DNA of 64,000 nt, from assembly GCA_003971905.1 (NCBI GenBank), contig RSEE01000027.1, positions 558,001 through 622,000 of the forward strand. Direction: 5' to 3'. The notes beneath the pieces were generated by a model. That model saw only the letters and a list, made by a program, of their open reading frames with translations. It was not told the origin of the DNA and did not search any database. Origin of the DNA: Moniliella sp. 'wahieum'. Its lineage: Eukaryota. Numbering within the stretch: the first letter of the stretch is position 1; each line of letters opens with the position of its first letter. The translations under genes and the position numbers were made by a program. Below are positions 14,401 to 57,731 of this stretch, one piece after another.

Positions 14401-15914
14401 TGGAATCTGTGGGACTACTGATCTCGCTAAAATCCTTGACCCCTCTCGATAACATGATCGCTCGGGAGTTCTGCATGCCAAGCCTATATCCATGCCTTCT
14501 TCGAAATTCTCGATGCCCTCCCCATCTATGACCTCGCCGGAATTCTTGATTTTTTTTCCTTTTTTCCACTCATGAGCTCCCGAAAGCTTTGAGGTGTTCA
14601 CTGCCCACAGGATTCCGCTGAAAAATGCCTTCCTTCTCGGGCAGTCTGCATATCGCCGAACAGCCTGAATCACTGATGATAACCCAGCCCCTCTGATTAG
14701 CTGACTTCAGAGGGATGGGGGTCGCAGCCGGGGAGGCGTTGATAATTTAATCACTGTGGTAGTTATATTCGATTGGGATCCATGGTGAATCATTATAATC
14801 ATGCCACCACCTTGCAGAGACGGGTTGGAGCTTTTTGAAGCCTATTTTGTAGCGAGACTTGGAACAACACATCTCCTGTCAGAAATGAGGCCTCAGTACC
14901 TCAGTTAGTGACTAGTGAAGGTGAGGGAAATTATAACCTGTTTTGACTCTCGAACGTCCGCAAAAACTGGGCTGTATTATCCCCCGGGACGCGGGACGAT
15001 TCAATTGTCGGGGCCTGGGCAGACTTGGGCACCCTCTGTGGAGTGAGACTTTTGCTATGAGCTGAGGCGCTGAGAGATGATGGCAGTGAGGACTGAGCGC
15101 CTGTTGAGCCTGAGGGCCTGAGGGGCCTGAGCCCTGAGCAGGCCTGAGGGGGGAAGCGAAGGAAGCCGCCTCGGGAAAACGCAAGTGAGCAATTGATGAA
15201 AGTCAAGCGTTTACCGTTAAACGTTAAATTCATTCACAGAAAGCTAGCTAATAATACACAAACGCCTCCCACACACTTGAACAGTGACTTAGTGACATGT
15301 TGTGAGTACTATGTTGTCTCATCGACTCATCTGCCACCGACGTCCAACACCCTGTAATCTGTGACTTCGCCCCCCCCCCCGACGGAGAGTCTCACGCGTC
15401 ACGAGAAACAGCATGAAAAAGCACCCTGCCAGCAGAGGTAAGCGGCATCCTAAAAGTAGGCGCAGTCAAACGCTTTTAACGGGGAAGGCACTGGGAGTCC
15501 ATGGGATGCCAAAAAAGAGAGGGTGTGTGCATCAGGATGTATCACCCCCTTCAACCTGCTGGCTTTTTACGGATGAGATTGAGATGAGATGCAAACTGAA
15601 ATCCGTCTCCGACAGTCGTCAAACGCGGTAATCGGGTCACGAGAACTGCCGGCGACCTCCCGGCAACCTAAGGCCGACCTACTAAGAGCTGAGCGAGAGC
15701 CACAGTCACAGTGATTGGGACACGAACCCGGACCTACAAACACTATAAAGGGGCCCGAGCCTTTAGTTGTTCTATCTCGGCTGTGTAAATCGGACATCAT
15801 TTGCCTCATCTCTCCTGCTGGCCTCCAGCCTCTTCAGCGTTTTTCAACACCCTCAGACCGACCATCTGTATACCAACGTTCAACCCAGTCAGCCCACCTT
15901 CATCGCGATGAGAT

Positions 15915-15935
15915 ATTAGCGCTTAGCGCTTAGCG
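15915..15935. repeat. (TTAGCGC)3 heptamer array
   Basis: ttagcgc ttagcgc ttagcg read directly. Confidence 0.85.
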
Positions 15936-17929
15936 GCAATCATTAATCAATCCCCAGGCCCCATTTGAGCACCATTTATTCACAGTGGGTTATCTGGACT
16001 ACCATGTCACCTCCACGTCTGGTTGCGCCCTGTAGCTTTTGCACTGCTGCAAGTAGCTGATGCAAGGCGGGTCGGAGTACGATGAGCTGCGTGAGATCTG
16101 AGAAGAGAGATCACGATTATAATGGCTGCTCCGATCTTAAATGACGTTAATGACGCGTGACCGCGTGACCGCGTCAGCAGAGTACCGCACACCCCGCAGA
16201 TCACAGTTGGTTCTCACACAACAAATCATGCATGGTATCATGCATCTTGCAACGTGCCTCCTCGATCAGTACATGCATGTCACAGGTCACCCGGTCACAG
16301 GTCACATGCAAGGTCACCGTCGCCAGCGTCACGTGGTGTGTCACGTTCAGGTTCCAGCCTGTTCCAGTTGTATTCGGACTTGTTCCCTGTACCAGGTTCC
16401 CGGGTCCGATAGGGTCCAGCAGGGTTGGACGCGCTGCGATGTGTTTCTATATATACACGACGGAGGTGCCACCTACTGTGACAATTGCCCAAACTACGGA
16501 TATGGCAGTGACTAGTGATCGAGCGCTAGTGATCTAGTAATATGTGGTCCTCTCTGTTATAGATTCCTTGGCGGAGCCGTGGAACAGGGGGGTTATTAGC
16601 CGCAACCCGCCCTCATTAATCATTCAGATGGTCTGGTTCGAAATAGGTATAGCAGTCATGCTCATCCGCAACAGCTGTGCCCTTCTGCAGATGGTTTGCT
16701 TAATGGCACTCGCTTATGATCGTCGGCATCCACGGTTCGGCCATGGTGTGCTGACAGGGAAAGCCAAAGGCCGCATTTAGAGCATCTTCCGCATTCCCTT
16801 TAACCGCAAGCCAACGACGATGCAACAATGTTCTCGAGCAAGGGGAAGAGCAAGGATGGCGGGCTCCGTATTAATGTGAAGCACGACCCATTTTTTCTCA
16901 CAACATTCTCACGCCCCCGCACAGGCTGCTTCTTATCAAAAAGGACATTGAAGTTCTCCTTTGCTGTACTATCGACTATCCCTCTGTTGTCTAAGCCCCA
17001 TCTCACTGCTATGCTAATGAACGTTGACATGAACGTTGAGACATATTGACGGAGCGAAGCAAGTACGCAGTCGAAGCCTGAAGTTCCCTGCGGCACTAAT
17101 ACTATCCCGATAGCACTTCCTCGGGTATCATGTCCCATCCTTCTCTTCTCAAAAGTCGGGTATGTACTGCGTCTCATATCGCGTCGCAATCTTCAGTAAT
17201 ATAGTACTGTAAAAAAACAGGCACGACGAGAGCAGGAAACTATATGATAAAAATAAGACGATGAGGGAAACGACCACCTCTCTCCTTTGCGACGCCAGTG
17301 AAGCACAGAAGGGTGACTAGCCGTCGCACACGCGGTCTACAGCGCCCTATTAATAGCTGTTACACAGAGCTGACAAAAGGGCAAAGGGAGGACGGAAAGA
17401 GTCTGCTGCAAGCTCCAAGTGCCAAACTCCAAAAGCGTCAAGCTCAGGAGGCCTTTTAGGCTCAAAAGGGCGAGAGAAGATCGGTGATATATGATAGACG
17501 AACAGGAAGATGGCAAGGACGTTGAACACTCTCGTGCGTCCCTCTCGTTTTTGTTTCCATATTATAGTGGGCATGCAGTCCGACTTGTGGCTGTAAATGT
17601 AAAGCTCCACCCAGTCACATTGTTGACAAACACATCGACTGACGAGGCACTATAGCCAGTCAAAAATGATATTCACTAAGTATAATAGTCACTAGTCACT
17701 GTGCCATGTGACTAGTGACTGTGGACTGGCCGCTTATTCCAATCCCTGCCTCATCTTGGTGTGGCAAAAGGCTTAGACGGAACCAACACCACCGCGATTG
17801 CATTGCTCAGCGGCTCAGCGCTCAACATCCCCGAGGTTTTCACTCAAATCCTTGGGTTCCTCCAGTCTTACAGAGTGGCCTTAAGCTTGTCAATGATATG
17901 GACGCAGAGTAGTCGCTCCAAAAGCAACA

Positions 17930-17968
17930 TCACGCGTCACGCGTCACGCGTCACGCGTCACATGTCAC
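17930..17968. repeat. (TCACGCG)4 + TCACATG heptamer array
   Basis: Read directly. Confidence 0.9.
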
Positions 17969-18005
17969 ACGCAATGATTAAAGCTAGCTTATACTAAGGA
18001 TGATC

Positions 18006-18033
18006 TCGATGATCGATGATCGATAATCGATAA
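18006..18033. repeat. (TCGATGA)2(TCGATAA)2 heptamer array
   Basis: Read directly. Confidence 0.85.
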
Positions 18034-18245
18034 TGGATGCTCGGACCCGTACCCGGACCCATGCCCGGATGCCGGTGGTCGTGTGGTTGGAGAACCAAAA
18101 CACGTCGGATATCGCTCAAGGAGACCACATCGATTGCAGATCTTATATCCTTAGGCCTTACGCGATGCCACAAAAACGCGACAGAACAGCTATAGTTCCT
18201 GGTCTAGTTATATGTTCCTGGTAACTTTCGATCGATAACCAGTTA

Positions 18246-18319
18246 GTTACTAGTTACCGGTTACCGGCTATTAGTTACTAGTTACTATTAGGCGCGTTAC
18301 GCGTTACGCGTTACATGTT
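18246..18319. repeat. GTTAC array with TA/CG/GC/AT spacers
   Basis: GTTAC starts at 18246, 18253, 18260, 18274, 18281, 18296, 18303 and 18310. Confidence 0.85.
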
Positions 18320-19278
18320 CCACGGTACGCCGCGGGGACACAGTTCATTACGTTCATTATGAACAGTGTGATCGCGTGATGTGTGTTAGGTGCTAAGTGA
18401 TTTATGGGTGCATCATGTATGTCACCCGTGCCGCGTGGGACGTGGCATGCATGCCGCATATCACATGTCACATTGCTGCTTTTGACATTATTTGATTTGG
18501 CTGCCAATACTGAGTGTACTCATTAATTGTACTCATTGAGTACTCAGTTGAGTAGTACTGAGACTCGGTCGAGTGGTTGAGTACTCAGAAGCTGTGAGAA
18601 AATGTGGTTAGTGGCCTACCCAGCAACACGTACTCAGTCGGTGCACTAGCTGGTACCAGGTACTCCGCCCTCGGTGTCTTGCGGACTAGCAAACGCGGCA
18701 CATGTCACAGCCGTCACAAGACCGGAGCCAGCAAGCCTGGCAAGCCTCCCAGCAACTCCCAGCTCCAAAGGTTTTGCGGACTAGGGCGGGTATCACACCC
18801 CCGAACTGAAGCCGATGATCGATGATTAATGATTGGGGTGGTGCTGATGGTGACTGTGACAGGTGACGCGACGTCCGTCTCGACGGCCACGCCCCACGCT
18901 CCAAGGCCACCCAGCAATCCAAGCGCATATATATGGAGGTGAAATTTGATGTTTGAAAACGGTAAACGGCAACTGGTAGCCGGTAAACGTAAACTGACGT
19001 TTGACGTTCAACTGAGCGTTCAGCGAACTAAGCGCCGAGCCTCAGCGGTCAACGCGGTAAACTCTCTCAGGCCTGACTCGGGCCTGGCCTCTCAGGATCA
19101 CAGCGCCCTTCGCACTGTCCACACCCGCCGCCCTCACTTCCACTTCCCCTCCTGCCGCCGTCGTTCCCACCGCCGCCCCTCATCTCCCCTCTTCCTTCTC
19201 CCCCCCTCCATTTGCTCCCAGAACCACGCTCCCGCCAATAGCAACCCTCGCGTTCTCCCTCTGCCATCGTTGCCACCC

Positions 19279-21354: not shown

Positions 21355-21402
21355 TAACACTTTTTGTCGGGTTTGCCATCACCATTAAGTGACTCCAGTT
21401 AC

Positions 21403-22027: not shown

Positions 22028-22392
22028 GGAGGTGGAGGTGGAGGAAAGGAGACTTCGGTGGTGATCATCATAAATTCATCGAGGGGAAATCAGGCTTGGA
22101 GGAATATATGTACCTCATCGGATAAGAAGAGAACTGATTAATGGTTAATGATTCGTGATGAGTACATAGAGATTCGATGTGCATACTCCCACATCATGCC
22201 TCTTTTCTCCCGAAGTATATGCATATGCATACAGCATCTGTGGTGGTGACGATCATGGAGATGTGTATGAAAATTCAGTTGCTTCCCTTCTCCCATTACG
22301 TTTTTTGCTATGCTCCCTTTATGCCCCACGTGACACCCCTGTGCCTGCCCCACGGGCCACACGCTTCGTGTGGACCTCATCTACGTTGGTTG

Positions 22393-22493
22393 TGTCATAG
22401 TTTGGCTGATCTCGCTCCCATTTCCAATTTCTTCGTCTCGAGCGTCTCGCTCCTTCCTGTTCCTTCCACTTCGCACCATGTCCTCTGTCTTGC
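22393..22493 (+). repeat. 5' LTR (truncated, ~100 bp)
   Basis: Near-identical to the first ~100 bp of the 3' LTR (two 1-bp indels), then switches abruptly to gag-like sequence. Confidence 0.9.
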
Positions 22494-23556
22494 CCAGGAG
22501 GACAGCGCCGCGCTTTCGAGGATGAGCAGAGGCGAAGCGCCGCGCTTTCGAGGATGAGCAAGAGGCGAAGCGCCGTGAGCACCGCCTCCGTCAGCGGCGG
22601 GAGGAGGCGGCGCTTGCCGCGGAAGAGGCCCGGTTGGCCGCCTCGGTACGGGAGGCTCAAACTGGCGTGGTGTCCTCGGCCCCCGCCCCCGCTCCCGCCC
22701 CTGGCCTTATGGTGATCTGACTGCCATCCCGAACACGGTGTCGGAAGAGCCTAAGATGTTCGAGCCCGTTCGTTTCCGCCCGTCGTCTGGTGCGAATCCC
22801 AACTCTCGTGACCGGGTCCAGGCCCAGCACGTCGTCACCTCCTTCGAGATTACGCGCGCGTCGCCCTCACGCATATGGGCGCGGCGGCATGGATCGACCG
22901 CTTCATGGGCCTGCTGCAGGGAGAGGCCCTCACTTGGGTCGAGCAGTTCGGCTCGGAGGTGGCCCTTCCCCTGGAGGCGCGCACCACACCGCCCTCCAGT
23001 CTTGGCCTGCGTTTCGCGCAGCTTTCCTGGAGCAGTGGGGCGAGCGCAACCCGGCGCTGAAGGCGTTTGAGGAGTTTCGTCGTCTTCGGCAGACAGGATC
23101 TGCAGCGGACTATTCCGCTACGTTCACGGTTCTGCTACGTCGCTGAACCCCAACGCGTCGGATGAGGACCGCTACTATTACTTTCTGTACGGCTTGAAGC
23201 CGCGGGTGCGTGACGCAATCGCCTCCCGCGGCGAGTCGGCTCACTTTGGACGGATCAGTTTCGAACAACTGCGCACAGCGGCCATTGACATCGACCAATC
23301 GCAATCGCTGGGCGCTCGTGGTACCGCAACCTCCCCGGGATCGGGCGGCAATCATTGGTTTCGGCCCTCGTCGCCCGAAGCCGAGCCCATGGACCTCAGC
23401 GCAGCCACCGCCACCGCCGAAGCGGCGGCACGGCGCACCGAGCGCCGCGCTCAAGGTGCGTGCTTCTACTGCGGTTCCCGTGACCACCTCATTGCCGAGT
23501 GCCCCACGTCCAGGTCTCCCCGCCGCCTCCTCGGCCCCGCCGCTGATTCTGTCTGA
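22494..23556 (+). CDS. gag: Gag (N-terminus missing, frameshifted) with CCHC zinc knuckle
   Basis: WPAFRAAFLEQWG..LRQTGSAADYSATF (retrotransposon gag domain), EPMDLS and CFYCGSRDHLIAEC. Confidence 0.85.
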
Positions 23557-26500
23557 GGCGGCAGTGGGGCCCTGTCCCCCCTCCTCTCGGTCTTTCACGG
23601 TACTCGCCCATCTGCATCCTGGCCCCTCGTCTCCGTCTCCCTTTTCCCCGATCCCGGTCACCGCCTTGGTCGACTCTGGTGCGAACAGTATTTTCATGGA
23701 CCATGGTTTTGCCCGCCAGCATGGCCTGGTTCCTCGCACGCTGCCGTCGCCCGTGGTCGTCAGGGTGGTAGACGGGCGTCCCATTTCCTCGGGTCTGGTG
23801 ACCCAAGCGGTGAAGGCGCCTGTCGTGATCGGCTCCCATGTCTCAACTGAGGAGTTTTTCCTCACTTCCCTCCATCACCCCCTCATCATCCTCGGTCTCC
23901 TTTTCTGGAAACTCACAACCCCAGCACCGACTACCCCTCGCACACCCTTTACTTTGATAAGGTGCAGTGCCGTGATCACCATATGCCTTCCACGACTGTA
24001 CCCCGGCCTCAGCCCCAACCAGCCCAAGCACCAGAACCCCAAGCACCAAGACCAGCCCAAGCACCAAGACCAGCCCAAGCACCAAGACCACCCAAGCACC
24101 AAGACCAGCCCAAGCACCAAGACCAGCCCACACCAAGACCAGCCCAAGACCAAGACTACGCACCAGCACCAGCACTCGCCCGGGCCCCGGCCCAAGTCCA
24201 CCTCCCCACCTAACCCCATCTCGCCCCCCTCTGTCAACTCGATTCCTTTTCCCTCCTCGGTTCCCTCCCAGCCCGTCCCCTCCTCCCCTCCCTTGCCCAC
24301 TTCGTCCCACCCCCCTTCGCGCGGTACGCAGCCTCTTCCCCACACCCCTTCCTCGGCGCCCTCTGGCCCGGGTCCCTCCTTGCCTTCTCGGTCTGGACCG
24401 CCTATTGACATTCTCTCTCTGGAGCAGTTTGAGCTCGAGGTGGTCAAGGAACCCGAGGCCATGGTAAACGTCGCCTTTCCCCCTGAGCCCGAGTTGGCCG
24501 TCTCGTCCGTCGCGGTCGCTGGCGGTCCCGAGCCAATGTTTCCCGACGAGTTTGACACACCCGAGTACCTCGAGCACGTCCGCCAGACAGTCCCTCCCCG
24601 CTACCACTCCTTCCTTAGCGCCTTTTCCAAGTCAGGGGCTAAGACGCTCCCCGCCCATCGTGCCGCCGATCACGCCATCGACCTTGTCCCCGGCGCCGCC
24701 CCCACCTTCACTCGCCTCTACCCCTTGTCGACGGGCGAAATGCAGGCCTTGTCCCAGTGGCTCAAGGAGAACCTGGCTGCCGGGTTCATCCGTCCGTCCA
24801 AGTCCCCTTCGGCGCGGGCGTCCTGTTTGTCAAAAAGAAGGACGGCTCGTTGCGCCTGTGCGTGGACTATCGTGCGCTCAACTCGGTTACGATCAAGAAC
24901 CGGTTGGCTCTGCCTCTGATTAGCGACTCGTTGGACCGCCTCTCGGGGCCCGCATCTTCACCAAGCTTGACCTCCGTGGGGCGTATAACTTGTTGCGGGT
25001 GAGAGAAGGCGACGAGAGTAAGACTGCCTTCCGCACTCGGTACGGACACTTTGAATCCCTTGTTATGCTCGTTTGGCCTTTGCAACGCCCCTGCCACCTT
25101 CCAAGCTGTGATGAACGACCTCCTCCGCGACCTCCTCGACGTCTCGGTACTGGCATACCTCGACGACATCCTCATCTTCTCGACTAATGAGATGGAGCAC
25201 GAGCGCCACGTTGCCGAGGTCCTCCGGCGTCTGCAGCTGGCCAAGTTCTACCTCAATCCCGACAAGTGTCAGTTCCACACACGCCGCACCGAGTACCTGG
25301 GCTACGTCGTTTCGCCTGACGGGATCGGGATGGACCCGTCCAAGGTTGAGTCGATTCGGTCGTGGCCAACACCCAGAACCTCTCGCCAAGTTCAAGTCTT
25401 CCTCGGCTTCGCCAACTACTACCGTCACTTCGTCCGTTCTTTTGCCCGTATCTCAGCCCCCTGTCCGACCTGACACGCAAGGACCAGCGGTTTTCTTGGA
25501 CCCCAGCCTGCGAAGCGGCATTTGCCGAGCTCAAGCGCGTCTTTGCCTCGCCCCACCTCCTCTGCCACTTTGATCCCACTCGCCCCCTTCGCCTCGAGAC
25601 TGACGCGTCGGACGCGGCGCTTGGTGCGGTGCTCGCCCAGCAGGATGTTCACGGTCGTTGGCGGCCGGTCGCCTTCCATTCTCGCAAGTTCACCGCGGCC
25701 GAGCTGAACTATACTACGTCCGAAAAGGAGGTGCTGGCCATCGTGGCCGCCGTGGAGGTGTGGCGCCATTACGTCGAAAGTGTTGAGACTGTCCAAGTGC
25801 TTACGGACCACGAGGCCATTGCTACGTTCCGCCGCCCCGCCTGTTGAACCCGCCGCCAGGGCCGATGGCGCCAGACCCTGTCCCCCTACCGCCTTGCTAT
25901 GGTGTACCGTGCCGGGCAGAAGAATGGTGCAGCCGACGGGTTGTCGCGCCGTCCCGACCTCGCGGAGGGGTCCCGGCCCGCTGACGCGGCACCTCAAGTA
26001 CTGGTGGAGCCCATGTCCGAACGTTCTGCCCGCCGCCCTCGAGCTCATGGCGGCGGACCCCGTTACGCCGGTGGTGGGGCGAGTGTCTGCCGACGAGATT
26101 CGACAGCGCATCCGCCAACTCGTGCCTCGTGACCCTCGTTGGTCCCTTGCTACGGCTCCACGCCCACCCCGCCATGCTTTGACGGTCCGCGACGGCCTTT
26201 TGTGGCACGGAAACCAGGTCTACGTTCCCAGCGACCCGCCGATCCGTGCTGCCATTCTCCACCAAGCCCACGACTCGGCATTGGCGGGCCATGAAGGGCG
26301 CGACAAGACGTTGGCCCGTGTCCGCGCTCAATATTGGTGGCCCCGCCTGTCAGCCGACGTGTGGGCCTACGTGCGCTCGTGCGACCGCTGTCAACGGACC
26401 AAAGCGCCTCGCCACCAACCCGCTGGACTCCTTCAGCCCCTTCCCCCTCCCCAAGGCCCCTGGACCCACTTGACGATGGACCACATTACCCAGCTTCCCC

Positions 26501-27596
26501 GATCCAATGGTTACGACGCGATTCTGGTGGTGGTGGATCGTTTTACCAAAATGGGTCACTTCATTCCCGCCCACACGACGGACACTGCGCCCCAGCTCGC
26601 ACGCCAGTTTGTACACCATGTCTTTCGCTACCATGGCCTTCCTCGGGATCTGGTGAGTGATCGGGGACCGACCTTCACAAGCCACTTCTGGCAAGCCTTG
26701 TGTGCCGACTTGGGCATCAAGTCGAGCCTCAGCACCGCGTACCACCCCCAGACGGACGGCCAGACTGAGCGACTCAACCAGATCCTCGAACAGTACCTCC
26801 GCTGCTACCTCGACGAGCAGCAGTCCAACTGGTTCGACTCCTCCCCACGGCCGAATTCGCCTACAACTCGTCCTCCCACTCGAGCACCCACCAGTCCCCC
26901 TTTGTCCTCACCTATGGTTACTCTCCCCGGGGGGAGTTGGAGCCCTCCACTTCGCCCGTGCCCGATGCTGCGTCATATTTGGAGGACTTGCGCTCGGCCC
27001 AGGCGGTGGCCCGCCGCACGCTCGCCGCGGCCCAAGACCGCTACAAGCATTATGCCGATCAGCAGCGCACCGAGGCGGCTTCCTTCACTGCTGGCCAGCC
27101 TGTCTTGGTCCGTCGGGACGGCTATGTGGCCAGCCAGCGGCCTTCTGACGGCCTCGACTATCGCTACCTCGGCCCCTTTCCCATTGTCCGCGCCGTGGGC
27201 CGCGCCGCATACCAGGTCCGCCTCCCCGACTACCTACACCTCCATGACGTGTTCCATGTGTCCCGCTTGCGAGCCTACACCCCTGGTGACGTGGTCCCTG
27301 CCCGCTTGATTGAGCCCCCGCCTCCTCTCCCCGAGTATGCTGATGATGGTGCGGTTCATCACGAGGTTGAACATGTCCTCGACTCTCGCCGCAAGGGTCG
27401 TGGTGGCCGCATTGAGTACTTTGTTCACTTCCGGGGCTATCCTGTCCACGAGCGGGAGTGGGTACCCGCTGCGGACATGTCTCATGACGCCGAGCCAGTG
27501 GTCCGTTTCCACGCCCTCTACCCCGATAAGCCTGTCTCCCATGCCCGCCGACTCGCCCTCTCTCGCCTCCGTCGCCGCCCGGGAGATGAGGTCTGA
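23557..27596 (+). CDS. pol: Pol polyprotein: protease, RT, RNase H, integrase, chromodomain (frameshifted)
   Basis: ALVDSGA (PR); [11 protein letters not shown] and [10 protein letters not shown] (RT); [14 protein letters not shown] (RH); [17 protein letters not shown] and [10 protein letters not shown] (IN); [25 protein letters not shown] (chromodomain). Confidence 0.95.
24020..24156 (+). repeat. 18-bp minisatellite (CAGCCCAAGCACCAAGAC, ~8 units) in the PR-RT linker
   Basis: Read directly; translates as (QPKHQD)n or (PAQAPR)n depending on frame. Confidence 0.9.
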
Positions 27597-27606
27597 AAGG
27601 GGGCAA

Positions 27607-27787
27607 TGTCATAGTTTGGCTGATCTCGCTCCCATTTCCAATTTCTTCGTCTCGAGCGTCTCGCTCCTTCCCTGTTCCTTCCACTTCGCACCATGTCCTC
27701 TGTTCTTGCTTCTTCCCCACGAACGATTGCTACACCCCTTGGCCTAGTCCGATCCTGGTCTCCCTCGCCTTAGCCCCGACTGTGACA
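27607..27787 (+). repeat. 3' LTR (181 bp)
   Basis: TGTCA...TGACA inverted ends, preceded by the PPT and followed by the TSD. Confidence 0.95.
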
Positions 27788-30524: not shown

Positions 30525-31770
30525 GTCGTGAGGTTGATGGAGGCGTTGGGTAGGAAAGAGGTGGGGGAACTCCGGAGAGAGGCGGAGAGGCGGAGACGAT
30601 ATATAAGAGCCCTCTGTGGTCCAAAAAAGCAAGAAAGTGCCAACCGTGTCGATAGTGGGAGGCAAGGGAGGGAGTTCCAGAGACCTTATAAAGCCACTGT
30701 GCCATACAATACAAGCAAATGGGGCCGATGACGTTTGCCAAAACGTCCTCTTTCATGTAGCTGGCGCTGGCGGCGGCGAGGCGGCGGCGGGAGGACTGTG
30801 GTGGAAAAGGAGGCCCCATGTGCTGTGTCTCAACCTGGCGGCAAAATGAGAGCGAAGATCCAAGGACGGTGTGCCAGATCGGGGCAGCACATATAGCGCT
30901 GCTCTGGTCTCACCTTCATCCCCCCGGCCGTTAGGCCTTATTAGGGGCGCCTTAGGTTCAGGCCCCGACCTAACCTTGCTGATGGAACTATATAGAATTA
31001 ACGTTTGACCTCCAACGTCCTGTACCCTGCTCAGCTCGCGCTAGGAGGCTCAGCGGCTCAGCCTGAGCCCTCAATTGAGCGCTGAGCCTGAGGCTCAACT
31101 TGTCCCCCGTGGTTCCAGCGTCCTAGCTCCGTATAGCCTCGAGCGGTGTGCGCCTCTCGATCGGCACCGCAACGCATCCCCTCGCCCATGACGGTGACGC
31201 GGTGACGGACAAGCGGCTACCGGCTACCGGTTGGAGGTCACCAATTATTAATTGCCGGGCCCTTACCGCTTACGTACGCATGCGGGATGCATATCGGAGT
31301 AGTGATGCGTGATGGGTGGTGGAGGATGGATGATGCGCATACGGGTGCGCAGGCAAGAAACCCTCTTTTGCCGGCACGAGGGCACTGGGCGCTAGGTACT
31401 GCTGACCAATTTGCCGACACGCCGGGGAAGCACATCCGCCGCACCACGCCACACTCGGCCGCACACCGCCTCTCCGCAGCTGACACCCTTGTTTCGCATG
31501 GGTCGTGTGCCTATGATGCGTGTGTCTCTGGGTGCGTGCAATGCGTACGGCCTCCGTCGTCCCTTCTCCTCTTGGATCTTGGATCTTACTTTCGTCTTAC
31601 TACTGCCTGTTGTGGCGGTGGTACAATTCCCCCGTCACGCGTCACATGTCACACAGCATCCACGTCCCTCGTACCCCTCAACTCAGCACACTCAGTAGCT
31701 CACCAGGTTCCAGTTGCCGATTCTTGTGCCTCGGTCGGCCAAAACTGTCAACCGCCAACTTTAATTCTCG

Positions 31771-31802
31771 TGATGCGTGACGCGTGACGCGTGACGCGTG
31801 AC
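31771..31802. repeat. (TGACGCG)n heptamer array
   Basis: tgatgcg tgacgcg tgacgcg tgacgcg tgac. Confidence 0.85.
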
Positions 31803-32000
31803 TACACTGCCCTCCCACCCCCTCACTGGTTACGGTGACTCGTCACGCGTCACGCATCATTAATCATTCTCATCCCGGCAGCATTCCCTCGCGCCCAGCT
31901 TCGTTCCACGTAACGCATACGCAAGGCCCAGCTCCACACGCGACATATGTCTGTGTTTTTGGTGGAGTGGTGCACCCGCCGACGGTTTCCACGTGCAAGA

Positions 32001-32045
32001 CGTTCAACGTTCAACGTTCTTCAAGCTTCAAGCTTCAACGTTCAA
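32001..32045. repeat. TTCAA array with CG/GC spacers
   Basis: TTCAA starts at 32003, 32010, 32020, 32027, 32034 and 32041. Confidence 0.85.
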
Positions 32046-33557
32046 CCTTTCTTGGCAGGCACAAGAGCACCCATGCACCACCGCGCGCGAGTCTCGTCAA
32101 CAATGATAATAACCTGTAACACCCCCTTTTCCACATATGCTTTTGTCTTCCCCCACATGTACTACCTTCAGAGCCGTTCTTTCCCCCCCGCTTACATCAC
32201 AACATTCTTCTTTCCTGGCGCGACCAATAGGGGGGACTCGATACCGTTATCCAACTCGCCACAGCAGTGTGTGTATATTCTATGCCACAGCGGCAGGCGC
32301 CGCTCTACCATATTTGTTGTTCTCTTCTTCTCTCAGATCTCAGTCGCCGCCTCTCACACACCTCCAGCAGGTAGAATATCACACGCTCCCGACGGGTACG
32401 CTCCCTTCTTTCTCCCCACCCCCTCGACTGTAGCTTTTCCCCTAGTCTATTTGACATGTTGACACCCCCTTCCTGATCCATAATCGATAATCGCTAACCC
32501 CTCAGCGGCCGATGAGGATCGCCCCCCTCCGGCTGAGAGTCACGGCAATTCCATGTCATCAGCTGTTAGTGGCATGCTAGCTGTTAGCATCATCGGCAGA
32601 GCGTGAGCACGGTGGTTCGGCTGGGCGCCCACAATTAAAACAAAACTCAATCCACAAAAGCTAGTTAGTCCCCCCTTTTCTTGGCTTGGTGTGTGTGCTA
32701 TACTTTTGGTTGCCGGTCGCGCCTCTCCCATCTCAAATACCTCAAACTTGTCTTAATGCAAGGACGTTTCCCCCATCATACATGCATCATGCACCAGGTC
32801 GGATATTATGCAGCATGTTTCATCCTACCCGATCCCGTCGCGATGCCCACCTGTTTGCGTCCCCGTGGACAACTCAGTACTCACTATGGCACATGAATAT
32901 GGCAACTGCGGCCACCACACCACGCTACGGCTCGGTGACTTTCTCTCCCCCTCCGAAAAAGCGCTCATATCCTCCCGCGTCCGGCCCGGTGGGTCGGACG
33001 CACACCACTGGTAGCGTCGGGTTGGTTTCATGACTTGAGTTGCACAAGCGGTCTCACCATCTCCGATCTCCTCATCTCATCAATCGGAGCGCAGCCGCTC
33101 CCGGCTCCCAGCTCCCAGCTCCGTCTCCGGCTGCCACTCAGTCTTGCTATCGAAAAGGAGACAGACAAGTCCATTGGCCGACCCCGGCGGTCCAGCGCGC
33201 CGTTCCACGCGATCTGCCAGTCGAGTCCGGGCACCGAGTCGGGCCGTGGCTGAACCTGAGCGCAAAGGGGACTCTCTGCTGCACTGTACCGCACCCAACC
33301 GGGTCCTAATTGGACCTGCCGGGCGCACCCGCGACGGCTGCCGACTCGTGAAAAAACTGGGAATCAATGACACATGACATGAAACGGGAAAAGGGGGAAA
33401 CAGAAAAGGGGGAAACAGCGCGCAACACAGGGCTCAGCGCTCAACGTATACGTTAACGTTCAACGTTCAACATAGTAGTCGGTCCATACAATCGGGATCG
33501 GGGGGAAAGGGGTAGGAGTAGGGGAACGGGGGGAGGGAGTACTACCAGCAGTCGATC

Positions 33558-40841: not shown

Positions 40842-41208
40842 GACGTGGTGCGAGGTGCGAGGTGACAGGTGGGAGGAAAAACAAGAGAAAAAATAAAGTG
40901 GGCCAACCGGGCTATATACAGGTAGACAGACGATTAACGATTGCTGGGCCAATCTGTGGGGTCGATATAGAATCTGGCTACACGGCCCCCTATCGCTCTG
41001 AGCGCCTGAGCGTCGTATATCGCGATCATCGATCATGGCCATCTTAGATCTTAGATCGTTTATCGCATGGAAAATCACGTGGCTTTTCTCGATCAGTCTA
41101 GTAAGTACCGACGGGTACCCGCGCGCGCTCGGCTGGATAGATACACCGTGTCCTGGCCACCAGGGCGCGCGCCACAGCAGCAGCGCTCCTGGCGAGGAAG
41201 ACGATCGA

Positions 41209-41243
41209 TCGATAATCGATAATCGATAATCGATAATCGATAA
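41209..41243. repeat. (TCGATAA)5 heptamer array
   Basis: Read directly. Confidence 0.9.
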
Positions 41244-42609: not shown

Positions 42610-42630
42610 AGCTTGAAGCTTGAAGCTTGA
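42610..42630. repeat. (AGCTTGA)3 heptamer array
   Basis: Read directly. Confidence 0.85.
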
Positions 42631-42810
42631 AAACTAAAGGCTTGGCACCGAATCGGGTCGGTGCAATCCGACCCGCACGTGGGCAATGATGCTACGGGAT
42701 TGGCCCTGGGGCCTAGACCCAGTAACGACACCTACCATGCGTTACCGATTTGTGCCGCGCGTTCTGCCCTCCTTCCCTTGGCGTTTTCATCGCCCATCGC
42801 CCATCGTGCA

Positions 42811-43428: not shown

Positions 43429-43765
43429 GGCTGGAAGAGGTGGTGGGGGGGGGGGCGACCACTTGATCGGTGCTGCCAGTTATAAGCAGGCACAACCACT
43501 GCGGGGAGGGTAAACTTTGAAAGTGGAACGCTGCGGAGGCGGAATCGGGGGGTCGAGCGGGGGGGGTGATGCAGGCGTCACACGTAGTGTGACATGTGAT
43601 GGGCTGAGCACGAGGAAAGAAAACGCACAGCGCAACTGTTGCAGCCCAAGGCAGCCAAGTCCAGCCTCACGCGTCACGCGTCAGGGCGACCGGCTGGAAG
43701 TGAGAGTGAGGTCACTAGTCAAGTCACTCGTCAGCTGGACTCAGACTGCGTTACCTGGCGAACCT

Positions 43766-43787
43766 TGAAGCTTGAAGCTTGAAGCTT
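43766..43787. repeat. (TGAAGCT)3 heptamer array
   Basis: Read directly; (TCACGCG)2 lies nearby at 43667-43683. Confidence 0.85.
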
Positions 43788-43835
43788 CACAGCGCCTGCC
43801 CATCTCTCCCTCCCGTGCCTGCCTCTCCCCCCACC

Positions 43836-45930: not shown

Positions 45931-46612
45931 GGGGGGCTATTGGATGGAGTTGCATTGTGTGTGTGGATGGCCGTGGGTTGGTACCGGACGGGCGTGGGAC
46001 GGGGACAGTCGCTAGTCGTGCCAGGCGTGGCTCGTGGGGGCGGCCGACGCCTGCCACAGCGGGCACGTGCAGCACGTGACGCGTGACGCAGCGTCAGTAC
46101 CAATATCAATATCAAGACCAGCTGGGATGCAATGGGAATCTGCTGCGCTGCTGGAGCTCCGACGCCGCTGCCATAGCAAGTGCTCGTCCGTTCGGTGCAA
46201 TGCGAATGGGACGCGCTCTGCGCTTCGGCGTGGTTCCAACCCTAGCGTCCATCGGGCATACTGGCGCCATGCCGCTGCTCCCCCTCGGGGCGCCCCAGGC
46301 GGCGCACACTGCCGCGGTGCGGCAGGTCGTCCCAGGGCACGTTTCCACGGGTCGCACGGCGCCGCTGTGGGCACAGGCGCAAATTTTTTTCCTTCTTCCC
46401 GGCCGCACATAGCACAGCACCAGTGCTAGCCAGCCAACCCCCGCCCCCCACCCGGATCGGCTGCCTATATGGTGCTGCCGCCCCCCCCCCCGCCTCTCGT
46501 TTCGCCACCACCACTGCTCCGACAGCAGGAGCCGTTGTACTACTGGTACGCATCCCTTCTCTCTCCCGCCTCGGCCCGCCGCCCTAACCCCCACCCGCCG
46601 CTGCAGTCCATC

Positions 46613-52033: not shown

Positions 52034-55000
52034 TCAGGCGGCCGCCTCGTTGGACGCCAAGTTGCGAAGGAGGAGCGCCAGCAGTTCCCCCGACACCACA
52101 TCGTTTGTCGTCCGTAGCGTCAAGCGCGCCAACTTGATTTGCGGGTTAGGTTCGAAGCGCAGCAGACAGCCCACTTTGCCCGTTTGGCTCGTGTGCAGCA
52201 CCGCTGCGCCGACCACATTGGTCGGGTTGGCATCGATCCCGTCGAGCAAGCCAAAGTGGGCGCCGGAGATGATCTTGCGCGTGCGCTCGGTATCGATCGT
52301 GCCGTCTTTGGTCAGTTTGAGGGGGAAAATGCTCTGGGCCTCGCGTGGGGCAGGACCAATTTGCCGCCAGCGCTCAAAGAATTCGTGCGAGGAGCGAAAC
52401 GGGGGCGAGGAACTTGGACAGCACAATCGGCAGCCGAACAGTGAGCTCCACCAGGGTGCCAGCCAAAAAGGAGATGTAGAGCGCCGGCACACCGTCGGCG
52501 GCATCCCCAGCGTTGAGCGAGTTGGCACTTCGGAAAGGCGCTTTGCATTCCACGTCCAAGTCCACACGCACCTGCTGTAGCGCCTCGACCGTCGTGGGCG
52601 GGATTCTGCGCAGCGACGTCTTGATAGCATCTGGTGCCGTGGTGCGAGCTGCCAAGGTGAAGGACTGCAGCGGCACGCGGACCTTGTTGCCAACAAACAG
52701 CGACACCGTGCCCGTCGCACCGGAAAACTCCGACTTGAGCCCCACTTGAATCTCAGCGTCCTCGTACAGCACACCCTCGGGCATGAAGCACAGGCGACGG
52801 AAGAGGCGGTCGTAGCCAGGCGTGATCGGGACAGTAGAGGAGGTACGGGGATTGATTCCGGTCGGCATCGGGACCAGGGGAGTCTTGGGCGTAGGGGTTA
52901 AAGCGACCAGGGGCGCAGCGGACTCCCTCCGTTCGGAAACGGAGAGTAACAAATCGTCCCCATCCTCGACGGGGGGAGAAGAGATCCGCAGCCCCGCCAG
53001 ATCGCCCATGATCTTCTCTGCGGCCTGGCTACCCTGTCGGGTTCGGCTGACCTCGTCCTGCTCCTGATACGTGTCCTGCAACGTCTCCTGCTCGTCCGAT
53101 ACACGGGGTAGCGCCCCACCATTTGCCGGGCCGCGGGCTAAGCTCTGCAATCGCATCGCGTTGCGGTCCCGGTTCGTGTCCTTCCCCCCATACACCCAGG
53201 TGCGCTTGTCCTCGCCATTCCCGCGCTGCTTCTCAAGTCGGGTGAGTAGCAATGCTTGAAAAAAAAAGTCAGTCCAGATCGTCGCAAAACACAAAAGCGC
53301 TGACATGACGTACAAAACTTTTCTGAAAAGGGAGGGATCTCATCGCACACTGCCTGGAGCAAGACGTCATCCGAGCGTGTGGCAAGCGCGTAGTACTCGC
53401 ATGCACGTTGCTGCAGCTCGGCATCGAGGGCGTGACGGAACCGGTCAAGGACAAAGAGGATCTGCTCTTTGATTTCAGGGAAAAGATTGAGCCATTTGAT
53501 GTAAGAGGGAGGAGGGCGCGAGTACGTTGGGAGGCGGAATGAGAGCGAGTATGGAGAATGTGGAACTGTTCAATGGGAGATGCCCCCTCCTGGTTGGCAA
53601 TCAGGTGGCCATATTCACCCAGCACATAGGCCCCGATCTTGATCAGGTTCTCATGGACCGAGGAGAGCTTGAGGTACTCGAGGCACTTTTTCGCCGCGTA
53701 CTCTTGTACATCTTCGTTGTTCACCACAATCTGCACCACGCGGAACCAAACTTCGTCCCCAACATTGTCCCCCGCGGAGCTGAGGAGCTGGAGGATGGTG
53801 TCAATGTACCACTCGTACTCGGTCGCATACTTTTCCGTCAAGATGGCAATCTTAAGCACCAGTTCCTCCCGCATCGCCCACTCGGCAGAGGGGAGATAGG
53901 ATAGAGTTCGCCGACAATCTGTTTCGAGTTGGACGTGTCGACCATGCTGTAGAGCAAATCCAGCGCTCGCCGACGGACACTAATGTCGCGATCTTTCAGG
54001 CCTTGGAGAATGGTGGCCTGGTGGGCTTTGATTGGTTCCAGGCTTTCTACACAAGCGGCCAAGTGGGCCATCGTGTCGAAACCGAGATAACGGACGGACG
54101 TTGGTCTCACGGCTTTGGATAAACCGGCCGAGCAGGACGGCGGCCCAGGCGACGACGCGCGAGGAGGCATCGATGTGGATCGCGAGGTTGATCGCTTCAA
54201 ACAAGATGGCACGTTGGGCATTGTTCTTTTGGATGTTGCGACTGGATTCCTGGGAGGACTGGACAATCGCCTCGAGCACCTCATTGATCGTCGCATTCAC
54301 TGCGTCGTCTTCGCTGGGGGGTAGTACTGCAGCAGACGAAGACATTTGACTTGCAGCCACGGCACAGGCACACGGTAATAGACAAACTCGTTGGTGTACT
54401 CGCCCAAGAGAACATCTTGGCCAAACGATTGACAGCTTTTGGTAGCTCAGCACAAACGCATCGGGATGTCTTGGGCCAGGGCGAGGACGAGGGTAGTGAC
54501 GGCCAGCGCGACCGACAAGTTTTCATGATCCATCGTTGCCACGATCCGAGCGGCCCAGTCGTCGACAGGGAAAATGGCGGGATGCTTGCGATAGAGACGA
54601 AGCAAGGTGAGCGCGGCCTTTTTCTTGACAAAGCTGCGCGACGTGGGGGAGAGCAGACGGTAGACGTCTTCCATCAATGTCTCAGCCATCTCTTCCCCGC
54701 CCATATTGGCGATCGCATGAAGGGCAAGGCAGTTGTTGACCTCGTCCATGTCGTCCAGGTCCTTGCGGATCGAGTTGACAACCAAGCGGGCCAGGTCGGA
54801 GGATTCGTTAAAGAGCAACGTGATGGCCAAGTAGCCAATCTGCTTTTCGCTGTACTTGGTGCTTGCCAGCAGACTGATCGCCTCCATGTGGCCAATGTCG
54901 ACGGGATAGCCGAGGATGTAGGTAAATGCAATCTTGGCAATGTACTTCTTCTTGTCGTAGCCGGCCAGATGACCGTCGCGGAACTTGGTCCGGATCTTGG

Positions 55001-55108
55001 CCATCTCCGTGTTGATTCGCTTCTCCTCCATCTCGCGCACGCGGGCCTGACGCAGGTCGGCAATGTACTGCGTCAGGCCCTTCATCTGCGACCCGCTTTG
55101 GTCGCCAT
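52034..55108 (-). CDS. APL3: AP-2 complex alpha-adaptin (intron 53255-53313)
   Basis: MKGLTQYIADLR..EEKRINTEMAKIR, YSEKQIGYLA, MREELVLKIAILTEKYA, ear domain (EGVLYED..GLKSEF) and KVGCLLRFEPN. Confidence 0.96.
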
Positions 55109-55375
55109 CGCCAAGGACGCCAAGGACGGGCACAGTCACAGCGGCAGCGAGCAAGAGGGGGCGGGGGGAGTGGAGGACGGAGGGGGGGTGGGGTGGCCTC
55201 GCCTCGCCTCGCCGCCTCGCCCAGCAGCCCCACCTGGCCCGCCGGCGCAGCCAGCCGCCCCGCTGTTCCGCCCCGCCCATTCCGCCCTCGCCCAACCCGC
55301 CGCGCCCTTCCTCCCCCATCGCGTGGCGACGGCCGCGCCCTTCCCCCCCCCCACCCCTACCACCACCACCATACC

Positions 55376-55712
55376 ATGGCATTTACGCCGCTCACGCCCA
55401 AGCCCTTCCTGGCGCAGATGGGGGCAAGAAGGTGGTCGTGAAGCTCAAGTGGGGCCTCGAGTACAGCGGTACTTGGTCAGCACCGACAGCTACAGAACGT
55501 CCAAGTGCGTCCTCCTGCTTTTCGTTTCTTTTTTTTTGCTTTTGGTTGGCCAGCGGCCGTAGGGCCCCCGCGCTAACTGTTCTCCCGCTCGCTACCAGTT
55601 GACCAACACGGAGGAGATCCAGGACGGAGTGTCGAACGGCATGCTGGGGGAGGTGTTTGTGCGCTGCAACAATGTACTCTACTTCCGCGAAGTGGAGGAG
55701 CCAGAAGCATAA
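55376..55712 (+). CDS. SMX3: snRNP core protein SmF (intron 55505-55598; one frameshift)
   Basis: Manual translation: [72 protein letters not shown]. The intron has GTGCGT..GCTAAC..CAG. Confidence 0.93.
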
Positions 55713-55883
55713 CCCACCCCATGCCAATTCTACGGTTCCTGCACGCTATCAACATGGGACAATCGGGGAAACAAGTGTAGAACCTAGGTCAGAACAGGTG
55801 GTCCGGGGCAAGGGGGAAGGAGGAAGGGAGGAAGGAGAAAGGGAGGAAGGAGAAAGGGAGGAAGGGAGGAAGGGAAGCAGGCG

Positions 55884-56743
55884 TTAGGCCGCCTCCTCGG
55901 CCGCGCGGGTTCGGCCGCCGGCGCGTCGGCCGCCGGCTCAGGCGGCTTGGTCTCGGCCTCCTGCATGTCGGACGTCCAGAGGGTCAAGTTATCGCGGAGC
56001 AACTGCATAATCAGCGTCGAGTCCTTGTACGATTCCTCCGACAGCGTGTCCAGCTCGGCAATCGCATCGTCAAACGCCTGCTTGGCCAGGTGGCAGGCGC
56101 GGTCGGGCGAGTTGAGAATCTCATAGTAAAACACGGAGAAGTTGAGTGCCAGGCCGAGGCGGATGGGGTGGGTGGGCGCCAGGTCGGCCGTGGCGACCTC
56201 CGAAGCTTTCTGGTACGCCTCGAGCGACTGGTTGGCGCTCTCCTCGCGCGTCGTGCCCGTAGCAAACTCGGCGAGGTAGCGGTGGTAGTCGCCCTTCATC
56301 TTGTAGTAGAACACCTTGCTCTCTCCCGACACAGCCGAGGGAATGAGGTGCGTGTCAAGCACCGAGAGGATGTCCTGGCAGATCTTGGCCAGCTCAGCCT
56401 CAATCTTTTCGCGGTACGTCTTGACCAGGCCGACCTGGGGCGCATGGCCCTTGCTTTCCTCCTTCTGCTCGATGGAGGACACGATGCGCCACGACGCACG
56501 CCGAGCACCAATCACGTTCTTGTACGCAACCGAGAGCAGGTTGCGCTCTTCGACCGTCAGCTCCCCCCAGTCGAGGCAACAAGCTTCATGTGCTCCACCA
56601 TTTCTGGTCAGGGCGGAGAAGGGGGGGGGGGATCAGCGCTCCGCGGGGGGGAGAAGACAGCAAGGGAGGGACACACCGTCGTACCGCTCAGCCTGCTCGG
56701 CGAGCTTGGCAAGGTAGACATTGTCCTCACGCGGGGCAGACAT
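55884..56743 (-). CDS. BMH1: 14-3-3 protein (intron 56604-56676)
   Basis: [58 protein letters not shown] and [18 protein letters not shown]. Confidence 0.97.
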
Positions 56744-57606
56744 GGCGAAGGCAGGGGGGCAGGCGGGAGGGTGGTGGCGGGGGCTATCGGGCAGCGGGCG
56801 AGGCGAGGCGGAGGGCACGCAAGGGCGAGGGACTAGGCAGGCGAGGCACGCCGTGGCGCACGGCGCGGCAGGCGCGCATGGGCCAGAGCGGCAGTGTGGG
56901 CGGCGCTGGGCAACCCTAGCGGGCGTCTCCGTACTGCGTCCTCAGTCCACCTCGGGTGCTCGTCTGCCTGGGCGCGGACACTGGCGCCGGGCGGCGGGAG
57001 GCGGTAGGGTTGCTGCTGGATCCGCGGCGCGTGGCGAGGCGCGCTGGCAGTGGGCTAACGCTAACAACGCTTAGCCCAGCTGAGACGCGTGACGCCGCCA
57101 ACGGAGACGATCGATTATCTTTCGCCATCATCCGTCCCATTGTCAGCCCCTGACGCCTTACGCCTGACGCCTCCCACGCCGCTCGCTGGCCACTGTGAGC
57201 CGACAGACGATACATACCATCCCTCGACCCAGTGTCCAAGCTCAGCCATTGCTATTCACCGTCCCAGTGGCGCCCAGAACGTACCGTGTGCCGAGCGTGC
57301 TGAGACCCCCGACGCCCTCTACGTGGCAGCGGCAATCGCAATACTGAAGCTGAAGCCCCAGCCCAAGCAGACGCACAGGCAGACGCACAAGCACAAGCAC
57401 AAGAATTACAAGCATGGGATTGAACCAATAACACGGAAGGTAGCGCCAGCTCAGCTTAGGTAGCGCGTAGCCACAGTAGCTAATAGCTAGTAACTTCCCA
57501 CAAGCGAAGCGTCAAGGAAAAAATGCGAATGAAGATCATGCAGAGTCGTGCGCAGGACCCGAGGTTCCAACCAAGCAGTGGGTGATGAGTGGCGTGGCCT
57601 AACGGC

Positions 57607-57664
57607 CCTGAGGCTCCGGCCTGAGGCTCCGGCCTGAGGCCAGGCCTGAGGCCAGGCCTGAGGC
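57607..57664. repeat. CCTGAGGC x5 array (12-13 bp period)
   Basis: Copies start at 57607, 57620, 57633, 57645 and 57657. Confidence 0.85.
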
Positions 57665-57731
57665 GCCTCAACGCCTCAAAGTTCCTCAAGGACAGGGCGT
57701 TTGCCCCCCCCCCTCTTTCCTGGTCAAGGCA

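What the first reader, a model, noticed from the sequence alone, without database searches (positions are those of the whole stretch)
15060..57670. One grammar behind many intergenic arrays: X-TNA-X' pentamers joined by self-complementary dinucleotides
Seen: arrays that look unrelated follow one rule. Examples: (TCACGCG)n at 17930, 31778 (reverse) and 43667; (TCGATAA)5 at 41209; (TGAAGCT)3 at 42610 and 43766; (TTAGCGC)3 at 15916; (TCAACGT)n at 32004 and ~33455; (CTTAGAT)2 at 41043; (GTCACTA)n at 17688; CCTGAGG arrays at ~15110 and 57607. Each unit is a 5-bp quasi-palindrome centred on T-N-A plus, usually, a 2-bp palindrome, giving a 7-bp period and a 6-bp A....T palindrome. I saw them only outside coding regions. 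Slippage alone would not predict that so many different heptamers share this symmetry. Inference: (a) stacked insertion/excision footprints of a cut-and-paste element with a TNA-centred target, since hairpin opening or retained TIR ends are known to leave palindromic filler between TSD copies; (b) a fold-back/template-switch repair process; or (c) transcription-factor site clusters. I know of no described cause, and no transposase is visible in this window.
Basis: partly seen in the sequence, partly recalled or inferred. Interest (0 to 1): 0.75.

Follow-up and report, generated by a model that had tools for sequence, protein, structure and literature searches.

The report
Seven-base transposon excision scars, culprit identified
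The many short 7-base repeats between the genes of this smut-related fungus are most likely scars left each time a CACTA-like jumping gene landed on a T-any-A site, duplicated 7 bases and cut itself out again through DNA hairpins, and copies of such an element, with that unusual 7-base duplication, still sit in the genome.

Summary
The pattern is real: 26 of 43 exact heptamer arrays in the window and 239 of 475 in 852 kb fit, against 2.5% of random 7-mers. None of 60 scars lies in conserved coding DNA.

The true rule is a 7-base insertion at T-N-A: five bases copied, plus two bases that mirror the flank. Haplotype pairs show empty and filled alleles (7 of 28 clean 7-bp indels fit exactly). A rarer scar keeps both whole 7-mers around two mirrored bases, fixing the duplication at 7 bp.

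Elsewhere in the genome I found a TIR family (CTCACTG ends, broken EnSpm-type transposase). All 16 checked ends sit on NN-TNA-NN, and 4 of 5 two-ended copies have a perfect 7-bp target duplication.

Best reading: excision scars of a CACTA/EnSpm-like element with RAG-like flush hairpins, later stacked by re-insertion and slippage. The excision step is inferred. The surviving copies prefer narrower targets than the scars show. It differs from described CMCT elements (2-5 bp duplication, CA ends).

The scan noted this pattern and three of these elements before, on other DNA of the same genome.

The parts
15109..15148 (.). CCTGAGG cluster; includes a whole-target joint (7-mer + 1 mirrored base + 7-mer) at 15109-15123, decayed further right
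15916..15935 (.). TTA + GCGC array, two +7 junctions
16140..16174 (.). two whole-target joints (+9 with 2 mirrored bases at 16140, +8 at 16156)
17686..17719 (.). two single +7 scars with core ACTAGT (TCA at 17689, TGA at 17709)
17930..17968 (.). mixed array at TCA: four left-type fillers (CGCG) then one right-type filler (CATG)
17999..18034 (.). +9 whole-target joint at 17999 followed by TCGA-filler scars at TGA and TAA
18244..18314 (.). three neighbouring TTA sites with fillers CTAG/CCGG, CTAG and CGCG
18813..18833 (.). mixed array at TGA (TCGA then TTAA filler)
31634..31652 (.). mixed array at TCA (CGCG then CATG); each filler matches its adjacent flanking base
31775..31867 (.). TGA+CGCG array (4 copies) and two further single scars at 31843 and 31857
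32000..32045 (.). two adjacent TCA arrays, ACGT filler, then AGCT, AGCT, ACGT
33434..33471 (.). single scars at TCA (GCGC and ACGT fillers)
41023..41057 (.). two single scars (TCA+TCGA, TTA+GATC)
41208..41243 (.). TAA+TCGA array, 5.1 copies
42610..42631 (.). TGA+AGCT array
43667..43787 (.). TCA+CGCG array at 43667 and TGA+AGCT array at 43764
46075..46089 (.). single scar (TGA+CGCG) upstream of the eEF3 gene
57607..57663 (.). CCTGAGG array of period 12-13: whole 7-mers separated by 5 mirrored bases (2 from the left end, 3 from the right) at 57633 and 57645

Best explanation
Write a target as L W T N A Z R, with primes for complements.

(1) An EnSpm/CACTA-like cut-and-paste transposon with 5'-CTCACTG ends inserts at T-N-A and duplicates the 7 bp centred on N. 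[Shown for surviving copies.]
(2) On excision each host flank is sealed into a flush hairpin with no base lost, as with RAG/Transib. [Inferred from the even-centred palindromes.]
(3) A host nuclease opens both hairpins 2 nt past the tip, giving 4-nt 3' overhangs Z R R' Z' and W' L' L W. [Inferred.]
(4) The overhangs are joined fully overlapped, so one strand reads TNA-ZR-R'Z'-TNA-ZR and the other LW-TNA-W'L'-LW-TNA: a +7 scar of right or left type in equal numbers. [Products shown; joining inferred. Opening 3 nt past the tip and joining on the T/A microhomology gives the same products.] Less often both whole 7-mers survive around 1-2 mirrored bases (+8, +9). [Shown.]
(5) The scar keeps TNA sites, so re-insertion adds units and gives arrays with a left filler then a right filler; slippage probably lengthens uniform arrays. 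[Array grammar shown; history inferred.]
(6) Frameshift selection, and probably open chromatin, keep the scars out of exons. [Exclusion shown; cause inferred.]
For: Rule: 646 of 887 TNAZR duplications at period 7 carry the mirrored filler, 55 expected; periods 5, 9, 11, 13 give 65/215, 6/119, 1/18, 0/17 (662 kb). On 852 kb: 792/1092 at TNA; ANT 10/326, CNG 15/508, GNC 14/627.

Periodicity extends exactly 2 bases on ONE side: (0,2)=74, (2,0)=79, (1,1)=8, (0,1)=9, (1,0)=7 of 556 junctions, so single scars are not plain 7-mer duplications.

Alleles: 7 of 28 clean 7-bp indels in four haplotype pairs are exactly empty site versus L or R scar, none of the 7 a plain duplication; 7-bp indels (28) exceed 6-bp (14) and 8-bp (8).

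Whole-target joints: 63 of 86 TNA-centred 7-mer pairs 2 bases apart have mirrored filler; controls 4/20, 4/68, 9/85.

Arrays: at most one filler switch in 126 of 127 chains; in 18 of 27 one-switch chains with one N, both fillers mirror their own flank.

Agent: 17 pattern matches, 16 fetched and confirmed as TIR ends, all 16 on NN-TNA-NN (TNA background 0.038). Exact 7-bp duplications at C20 (378-bp MITE), C23, C34, C35. The C11 copy has about 78-bp TIRs, 11-bp subterminal repeats and colinear EnSpm-type transposase pieces in three frames (E 0.009, 2e-7, 4e-9; none of 10 shuffles under 0.05). One end (L123) sits directly on a left-type scar.

Chemistry: Artemis opens hairpins 2-3 nt 3' of the apex, and wild-type P additions were at most 2 nt (PMC2715118).
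Against: No excision was observed: no allele pair shows element versus scar at one site, and indel polarity is not fixed by an outgroup.

Target spectra differ. Surviving ends have A/T then G/C at +2,+3 in 15 of 16, against 103 of 294 (35%) of +7 scars (background 28%) and 63 of 124 half-sites (51%) of +9 scars. This one family may not have made all the scars.

One of five two-ended copies (C11) has non-identical flanks. 19 of 28 clean 7-bp indels fit neither the rule exactly nor a plain duplication. 30 of 127 chains change N. The +8 class is weak on its own (61/70, but 14/20 in the ANT control).

No intact transposase of this family was seen; only one copy's interior was read. About 17 ends face an extrapolated 40,000 scars. 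No copy of the family lies in the window or the other DNA held.
Confidence: 0.8

Rival explanations
1. Same scar chemistry, but most scars were made by another agent: lost sister families, a Kyakuja or hAT7 element (both make 7-bp duplications in basidiomycetes), or one of the TIR-less EnSpm-type genes at C17/C62 and C34 acting on cryptic ends.
For: Scar targets are broader than those of the surviving copies. Kyakuja and hAT7 with 7-bp TSDs are described (PMC12730594). Two further EnSpm-type loci without recognisable TIR or TSD exist. KDZ families were not searched.
Against: The CTCACTG family has the exact length and TNA centre the scars require. The hAT-type odd-centred joint is not enriched (144/578 vs 144.5 expected), and PF05699 gave no match (a weak negative since the control genomes did not ring either).
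Confidence: 0.12
2. A replication template switch or flap fold-back (small inverted triplication type) copies A-Z-R forward, back and forward again, with no transposon involved.
For: The +7 scar can be written as a 3-bp DUP/INV/DUP. Such events are described in FEN1/rad27 mutants (PMC13334657, passages). Scars far outnumber elements.
Against: Described SITs have median arms near 150 bp, a 30-bp spacer and 6-bp junctions; here the turn has no spacer and one fixed length. Only TNA centres are used, although CNG and GNC would pair better. It does not predict whole-7-mer joints with mirrored filler or elements with a 7-bp TNA duplication.
Confidence: 0.04
3. Clusters of transcription-factor sites kept by selection (ACGCGT, ATCGAT, AAGCTT and similar).
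For: The arrays lie between genes, often upstream of them. Some cores resemble known motifs, such as the MCB box ACGCGT (recalled).
Against: All 16 palindromic cores occur; the filler is set by the flank; scars differ between haplotypes; the motif extends on one side only.
Confidence: 0.02
4. Long-read sequencing or assembly artefact.
For: The assembly has frameshifts in conserved genes, and no raw reads were listed.
Against: The same arrays recur in separately assembled haplotype contigs; the pattern avoids coding DNA; it matches the geometry of real elements.
Confidence: 0.01

Closest known systems
EnSpm/CACTA transposons, CMCT clade (Kojima 2025, PMC12730594; CNIRT6 and CNEST of Cryptococcus, PMC12810828)
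   Same: Long TIRs with subterminal repeats; transposase with C(2)C and H(3)H motifs and the final catalytic E; non-autonomous MITE derivatives; CAC near the end.
   Different: Ends are 5'-CT..AG-3' with CAC two bases inside; the duplication is 7 bp on a strict TNA centre. The paper gives CA..TG ends in most cases and 2-5 bp for the clade; CNIRT6 3 bp, CNEST TA.
V(D)J coding joints and Transib excision (RAG-type flank hairpins opened by Artemis)
   Same: Palindromes centred between two bases at an untrimmed flank end; P additions of about 2 nt.
   Different: Transib and RAG duplicate 5 bp (recalled). Here one joint class dominates and has accumulated genome-wide.
Ac/Ds (hAT) excision footprints in yeasts and plants (PMC5873905); hAT7 of rusts
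   Same: Flank hairpins, P nucleotides, one or two dominant footprints; hAT7 has a 7-bp TSD.
   Different: Ac/Ds palindromes centre on the complement of the base next to the element (odd centre); that class is not enriched here.
Muta1 (MULE) flank hairpins (PMC5499845)
   Same: Hairpin on the host flank holding both full strands (43+43 nt).
   Different: 8-9 bp TSD and over 90% precise excision in yeast.
Kyakuja (KDZ), 7-bp TSD (PMC12730594)
   Same: 7-bp duplication in basidiomycetes.
   Different: No TIRs, CA..TG ends, different transposase. Its presence here was not tested.

Membership tests
EnSpm/CACTA (CMCT clade): the CTCACTG element | EnSpm/Tnp2-type DDE transposase with C(2)C and H(3-4)H motifs | tested here: met
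   colinear pieces with CxxC, HxxxH and E against a profile of 41 relatives of a PF02992 protein; tblastn E 2e-13. The copy is broken, the N-terminal part is missing, and its longest piece has no Pfam hit.
EnSpm/CACTA (CMCT clade): the CTCACTG element | TIRs with subterminal repeats | tested here: met
   inverted arms of 83 nt at 93% (5 nt are flank), 11-bp repeats; for the other copies.
EnSpm/CACTA (CMCT clade): the CTCACTG element | 5'-CA..TG-3' termini | tested here: not met
   Ends are CTCACTG..CAGTGAG, fixed by the direct repeats next to them.
EnSpm/CACTA (CMCT clade): the CTCACTG element | 2-5 bp target duplication | tested here: not met
   Exactly 7 bp in 4 of 5 two-ended copies, 0 in the fifth.
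EnSpm/CACTA (CMCT clade): the CTCACTG element | Phylogenetic placement inside EnSpm | not tested
   No tree built; only one decayed interior was read.
Flush-hairpin (RAG/Transib-type) excision joints | Even-centred P nucleotides next to an untrimmed target copy | tested here: met
Flush-hairpin (RAG/Transib-type) excision joints | Covalent hairpin intermediate made by the transposase | not testable with these tools
   Needs an in vitro cleavage assay.
hAT / hAT7 footprints | Odd-centred palindrome on the complement of the base next to the element | tested here: not met
   144/578 vs 144.5 expected; centre base equals the complement in 52, the same base in 56.
hAT / hAT7 footprints | hAT transposase in the genome | tested here: inconclusive
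   PF05699 no match, controls silent too.
PIF/Harbinger footprints | 3-bp TNA duplication alone | tested here: not met
   Scars carry the two bases beyond TNA in both copies, and whole 7-mers in the +9 class. No Harbinger transposase search was run.
Kyakuja (KDZ) | KDZ transposase, 7-bp TSD, no TIR | not tested
   No KDZ family search was run.
Small inverted triplication (FEN1) | Arms near 150 bp, 30-bp spacer, 6-bp junction | tested here: not met
   3-bp arms, no spacer, fixed length.

The most novel reading that the evidence does not exclude
An undescribed EnSpm/RAG-related lineage with a 7-bp TNA target has acted as a long-running promoter mutator. It left tens of thousands of stereotyped scars, returns to its own scars, produced about half of all heptamer repeats, and keeps writing 6-bp palindromes (ACGCGT, ATCGAT, AAGCTT) into regulatory DNA, some now used as binding sites, perhaps driven by a host-retained TIR-less transposase (C34 or C17).
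Probability: 0.2. Interest if true: 0.85.

Novelty: new variant of a known kind. Interest (0 to 1): 0.66.

Why it matters
It would widen the CMCT clade beyond its stated 2-5 bp duplication and CA ends. It would give sequence-level evidence that an EnSpm-type transposase excises through flush, RAG-like flank hairpins. It would also show that excision footprints alone can be a main source of one microsatellite class and of palindromic motifs in non-coding DNA. Because the scar can be read back to the empty site, it is a countable record of past transposition and of hairpin repair in a fungus, and it makes a precise prediction for a yeast excision assay.

Tried and rejected
- Pentamer as the duplicated target, or filler from TIR ends: rejected; the filler mirrors the flank and uses all 16 cores.
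- Plain 7-mer slippage as the origin of single scars: rejected.
- hAT-type odd hairpins: not enriched.
- EnSpm-type loci C17/C62 and C34:513-517 kb as the agent: no TIR or TSD found.
- The 9.2-kb CAC..GTG element on C3: TA duplication, not 7 bp.
- Plavaka PF18759 and hAT PF05699: no match, uninformative.
- TIR scan of about 850 kb of held DNA: no convincing element with a 7-bp duplication.
- Sequencing runs: none was listed.
- TIR pattern in metagenome contigs: 0 matches.
- Word-index protein searches for longer relatives of two transposase pieces: none; weak evidence.
- Literature searches listed no description of this scar pattern or of a 7-bp EnSpm-type element. The library lacks most subscription papers and Repbase, and I did not open the supplements of PMC12730594, which list termini and TSDs.
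Full report
Setting. The window is fungal. Its eEF3 is 88% identical to that of Tilletiaria anomala, with Tilletia and other smuts next. The assembly holds 69.5 Mb in 223 contigs and several related copies of the genome: pairs such as C3/C61 are 93-96% alike, and the window's contig is 72-89% alike to them in genes. I analysed the window plus fetched stretches: 662 kb, and 852 kb. The sample is not random: it holds the window, 198 kb beside it, 200 kb of C61 and 39-40 pieces of 10 kb at round positions.

Every named array is present. 26 of 43 exact heptamer arrays in the window and 239 of 475 in 852 kb fit, against 2.5% of random 7-mers. With conserved tblastn blocks as a proxy for exons, 0 of 60 events are coding, although a third of TNA sites are. 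The window has 66 junctions at 47 loci.

The real rule. Write the site as L W T N A Z R. A single event is TNA-ZR-R'Z'-TNA-ZR (right type) or its mirror (left type). 646 of 887 period-7 duplications of TNAZR carry the mirrored pair, against 55 expected, and no other period comes close. The repeat extends two bases on one side only (74 and 79 cases, against 8 for one base on each side), so single scars are not tandem copies of a heptamer. ANT, CNG and GNC centres show no excess, so TNA is a requirement of the cutting enzyme and not just a repair aid.

Alleles. In four haplotype pairs, 28 clean 7-bp indels were found. 7 are exactly empty site versus scar (4 left, 3 right), 2 are plain duplications and 19 fit neither; several of those lie inside arrays with a substitution (examples). 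In C61/C3 there are 4 exact cases beside 3,311 mismatches, about one per 800 substitutions. Polarity is not fixed by an outgroup.

Length of the duplication from scars alone. Among TNA-centred 7-mers repeated 2 bases apart, 63 of 86 have filler made only of mirrored bases (controls 4/20, 4/68, 9/85). At 1 base apart it is 61 of 70, but the ANT control is 14 of 20. Both copies of a 7-bp target therefore existed before the joint formed.

Arrays. Repeated events at one TNA should give left fillers, then right fillers, with one switch. 126 of 127 chains have at most one switch, and in 18 of 27 one-switch chains with one N both fillers mirror their own flank; 30 chains change N. Uniform arrays may also grow by slippage, which I did not test.

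The agent. A pattern search (100 of 412 matches listed) gave a facing pair on C11. That stretch is a 4,849-bp element with about 78-bp TIRs, 11-bp subterminal repeats, an LTR remnant and a broken EnSpm-type transposase. A search with the TIR plus seven flank places and three mismatches returned 17 ends. I fetched 16 and all are TIR ends on NN-TNA-NN; the 17th looks like a chance match and was not fetched. For the nine ends with at most one mismatch the pattern had room to lose T and A, and no such end appeared. Leaving out the two C11 ends, which were selected for TNA, these are four independent sites at a background of 0.038 each. C20 (378 bp), C23 (4,968), C34 (4,945) and C35 (4,856) have exact 7-bp duplications; C11 has two different TNA-centred flanks. 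One end sits on a left-type scar (L123). The lengths of C23, C34 and C35 plus 14 equal those of notes e1-7649017, e1-7649671 and e1-7649681.

Mechanism. A palindrome with no spacer at an untrimmed end is what hairpin opening gives. Ac/Ds joints centre on one complemented base (PMC5873905, passages), and that class is absent here. Flank hairpins are shown for hAT, Transib, RAG and Muta1 (PMC5499845, passages). Artemis opens hairpins 2-3 nt from the apex, and wild-type P additions were at most 2 nt (PMC2715118, passages). That RAG and Transib cut flush and duplicate 5 bp is recalled. Opening both hairpins at +2 gives two 4-nt overhangs, and their full overlap gives exactly +7, right type on one strand and left type on the other, matching the equal counts. 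Steps 2-4 are inferred.

Against this reading. No element-versus-scar allele pair was seen. Surviving ends have A/T then G/C at +2,+3 in 15 of 16, against 35% of +7 scars (background 28%) and 51% of +9 half-sites, so lost sister families or another 7-bp element may have made many scars. Kyakuja was not searched. No intact transposase was seen. About 17 ends face some 40,000 scars, extrapolated from 487 loci in 852 kb over all genome copies.

Other fungi. In 26 eEF3 loci of at least 5.8 kb from metagenomes (about 390 kb by my sum, many redundant; 54 shorter loci left out) there are 7 events, against 613 in 852 kb here and 16 and 9 around this genome's own eEF3 copies. The pattern looks lineage-restricted, but no close relative with flanking DNA was available.

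Known systems. Kojima 2025 (PMC12730594; abstract, section 3.1 and passages) gives CA..TG ends in most cases and 2-5 bp duplications for the CMCT clade, and 7 bp for hAT7 and Kyakuja; its supplements were not opened and may list similar termini. CNIRT6 (3 bp) and CNEST (TA, CACGG ends) are in PMC12810828 (passages). Rice excisions are heterogeneous, with 8 of 94 perfect (PMC4423477, passages). Pack-CACTA leaves varied footprints (PMC6379663, passages). Small inverted triplications are far larger (PMC13334657, passages). Searches listed no account of this pattern; Repbase and most subscription papers are outside the library.

Verdict. It works like RAG/Transib excision by an EnSpm-like element, but it fails two defining features of described EnSpm families, so I file it as a new variant and not as a member. 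I had the rule and the 7-bp hairpin model before the first look-up. The scan has noted the pattern many times in this genome; those notes are not independent support. Interest 0.66.

Noticed in passing
G000:C3:296138-305342 (L104, L040): 9,205-bp element with CACGGGCGG ends, subterminal repeats, a TA duplication and a distant EnSpm-type transposase; absent from the allelic site on C61, so recently mobile; CNEST/ESTA-like.
   Followed up: partly
L107:4100-7200 (C17) and L109 (C62); L108:3259-6872 (C34): Two EnSpm-type transposase loci between host genes with no TIR or TSD found; the C34 one is single-copy and covers most of the profile with a few frameshifts. Possibly domesticated.
   Followed up: partly
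window 22390-27710: Ty3/gypsy-type retrotransposon (protease, RT, integrase pieces, frameshifted), with a repeat of about 100 bp near 22393 and 27607.
   Followed up: no
whole assembly: Several genome copies: pairs at 93-96% identity (C3/C61, C6/C80, C58/C60, C17/C62), with the window's contig at 72-89% to C3/C61; hybrid, polyploid or mixed assembly. Two eEF3 loci per set.
   Followed up: partly
L110:134-140 and 4990-4996 (C11): The C11 element has two different TNA-centred flanks and the same end type on both sides; possibly recombination between two insertions.
   Followed up: no
L114/L115 (C34) and L116/L117 (C35), also L118, L122: Independent insertions share the same 7-mer target or its reverse complement, pointing to a strong target consensus S-W-T-S-A-W-S in the surviving family.
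   Followed up: partly
C61 stretch near 157660-158110; L107:2440-2660 and 3116-3555: Solo LTR with a 5-bp duplication, polymorphic between haplotypes; a second repeat of about 440 bp has dozens of copies.
   Followed up: no
PMC12730594 section 3.2.2: PlavakaB termini (CATCA..TGATG) resemble the target consensus here; the direct-repeat flanks show the letters are host-derived, so probably coincidence.
   Followed up: partly
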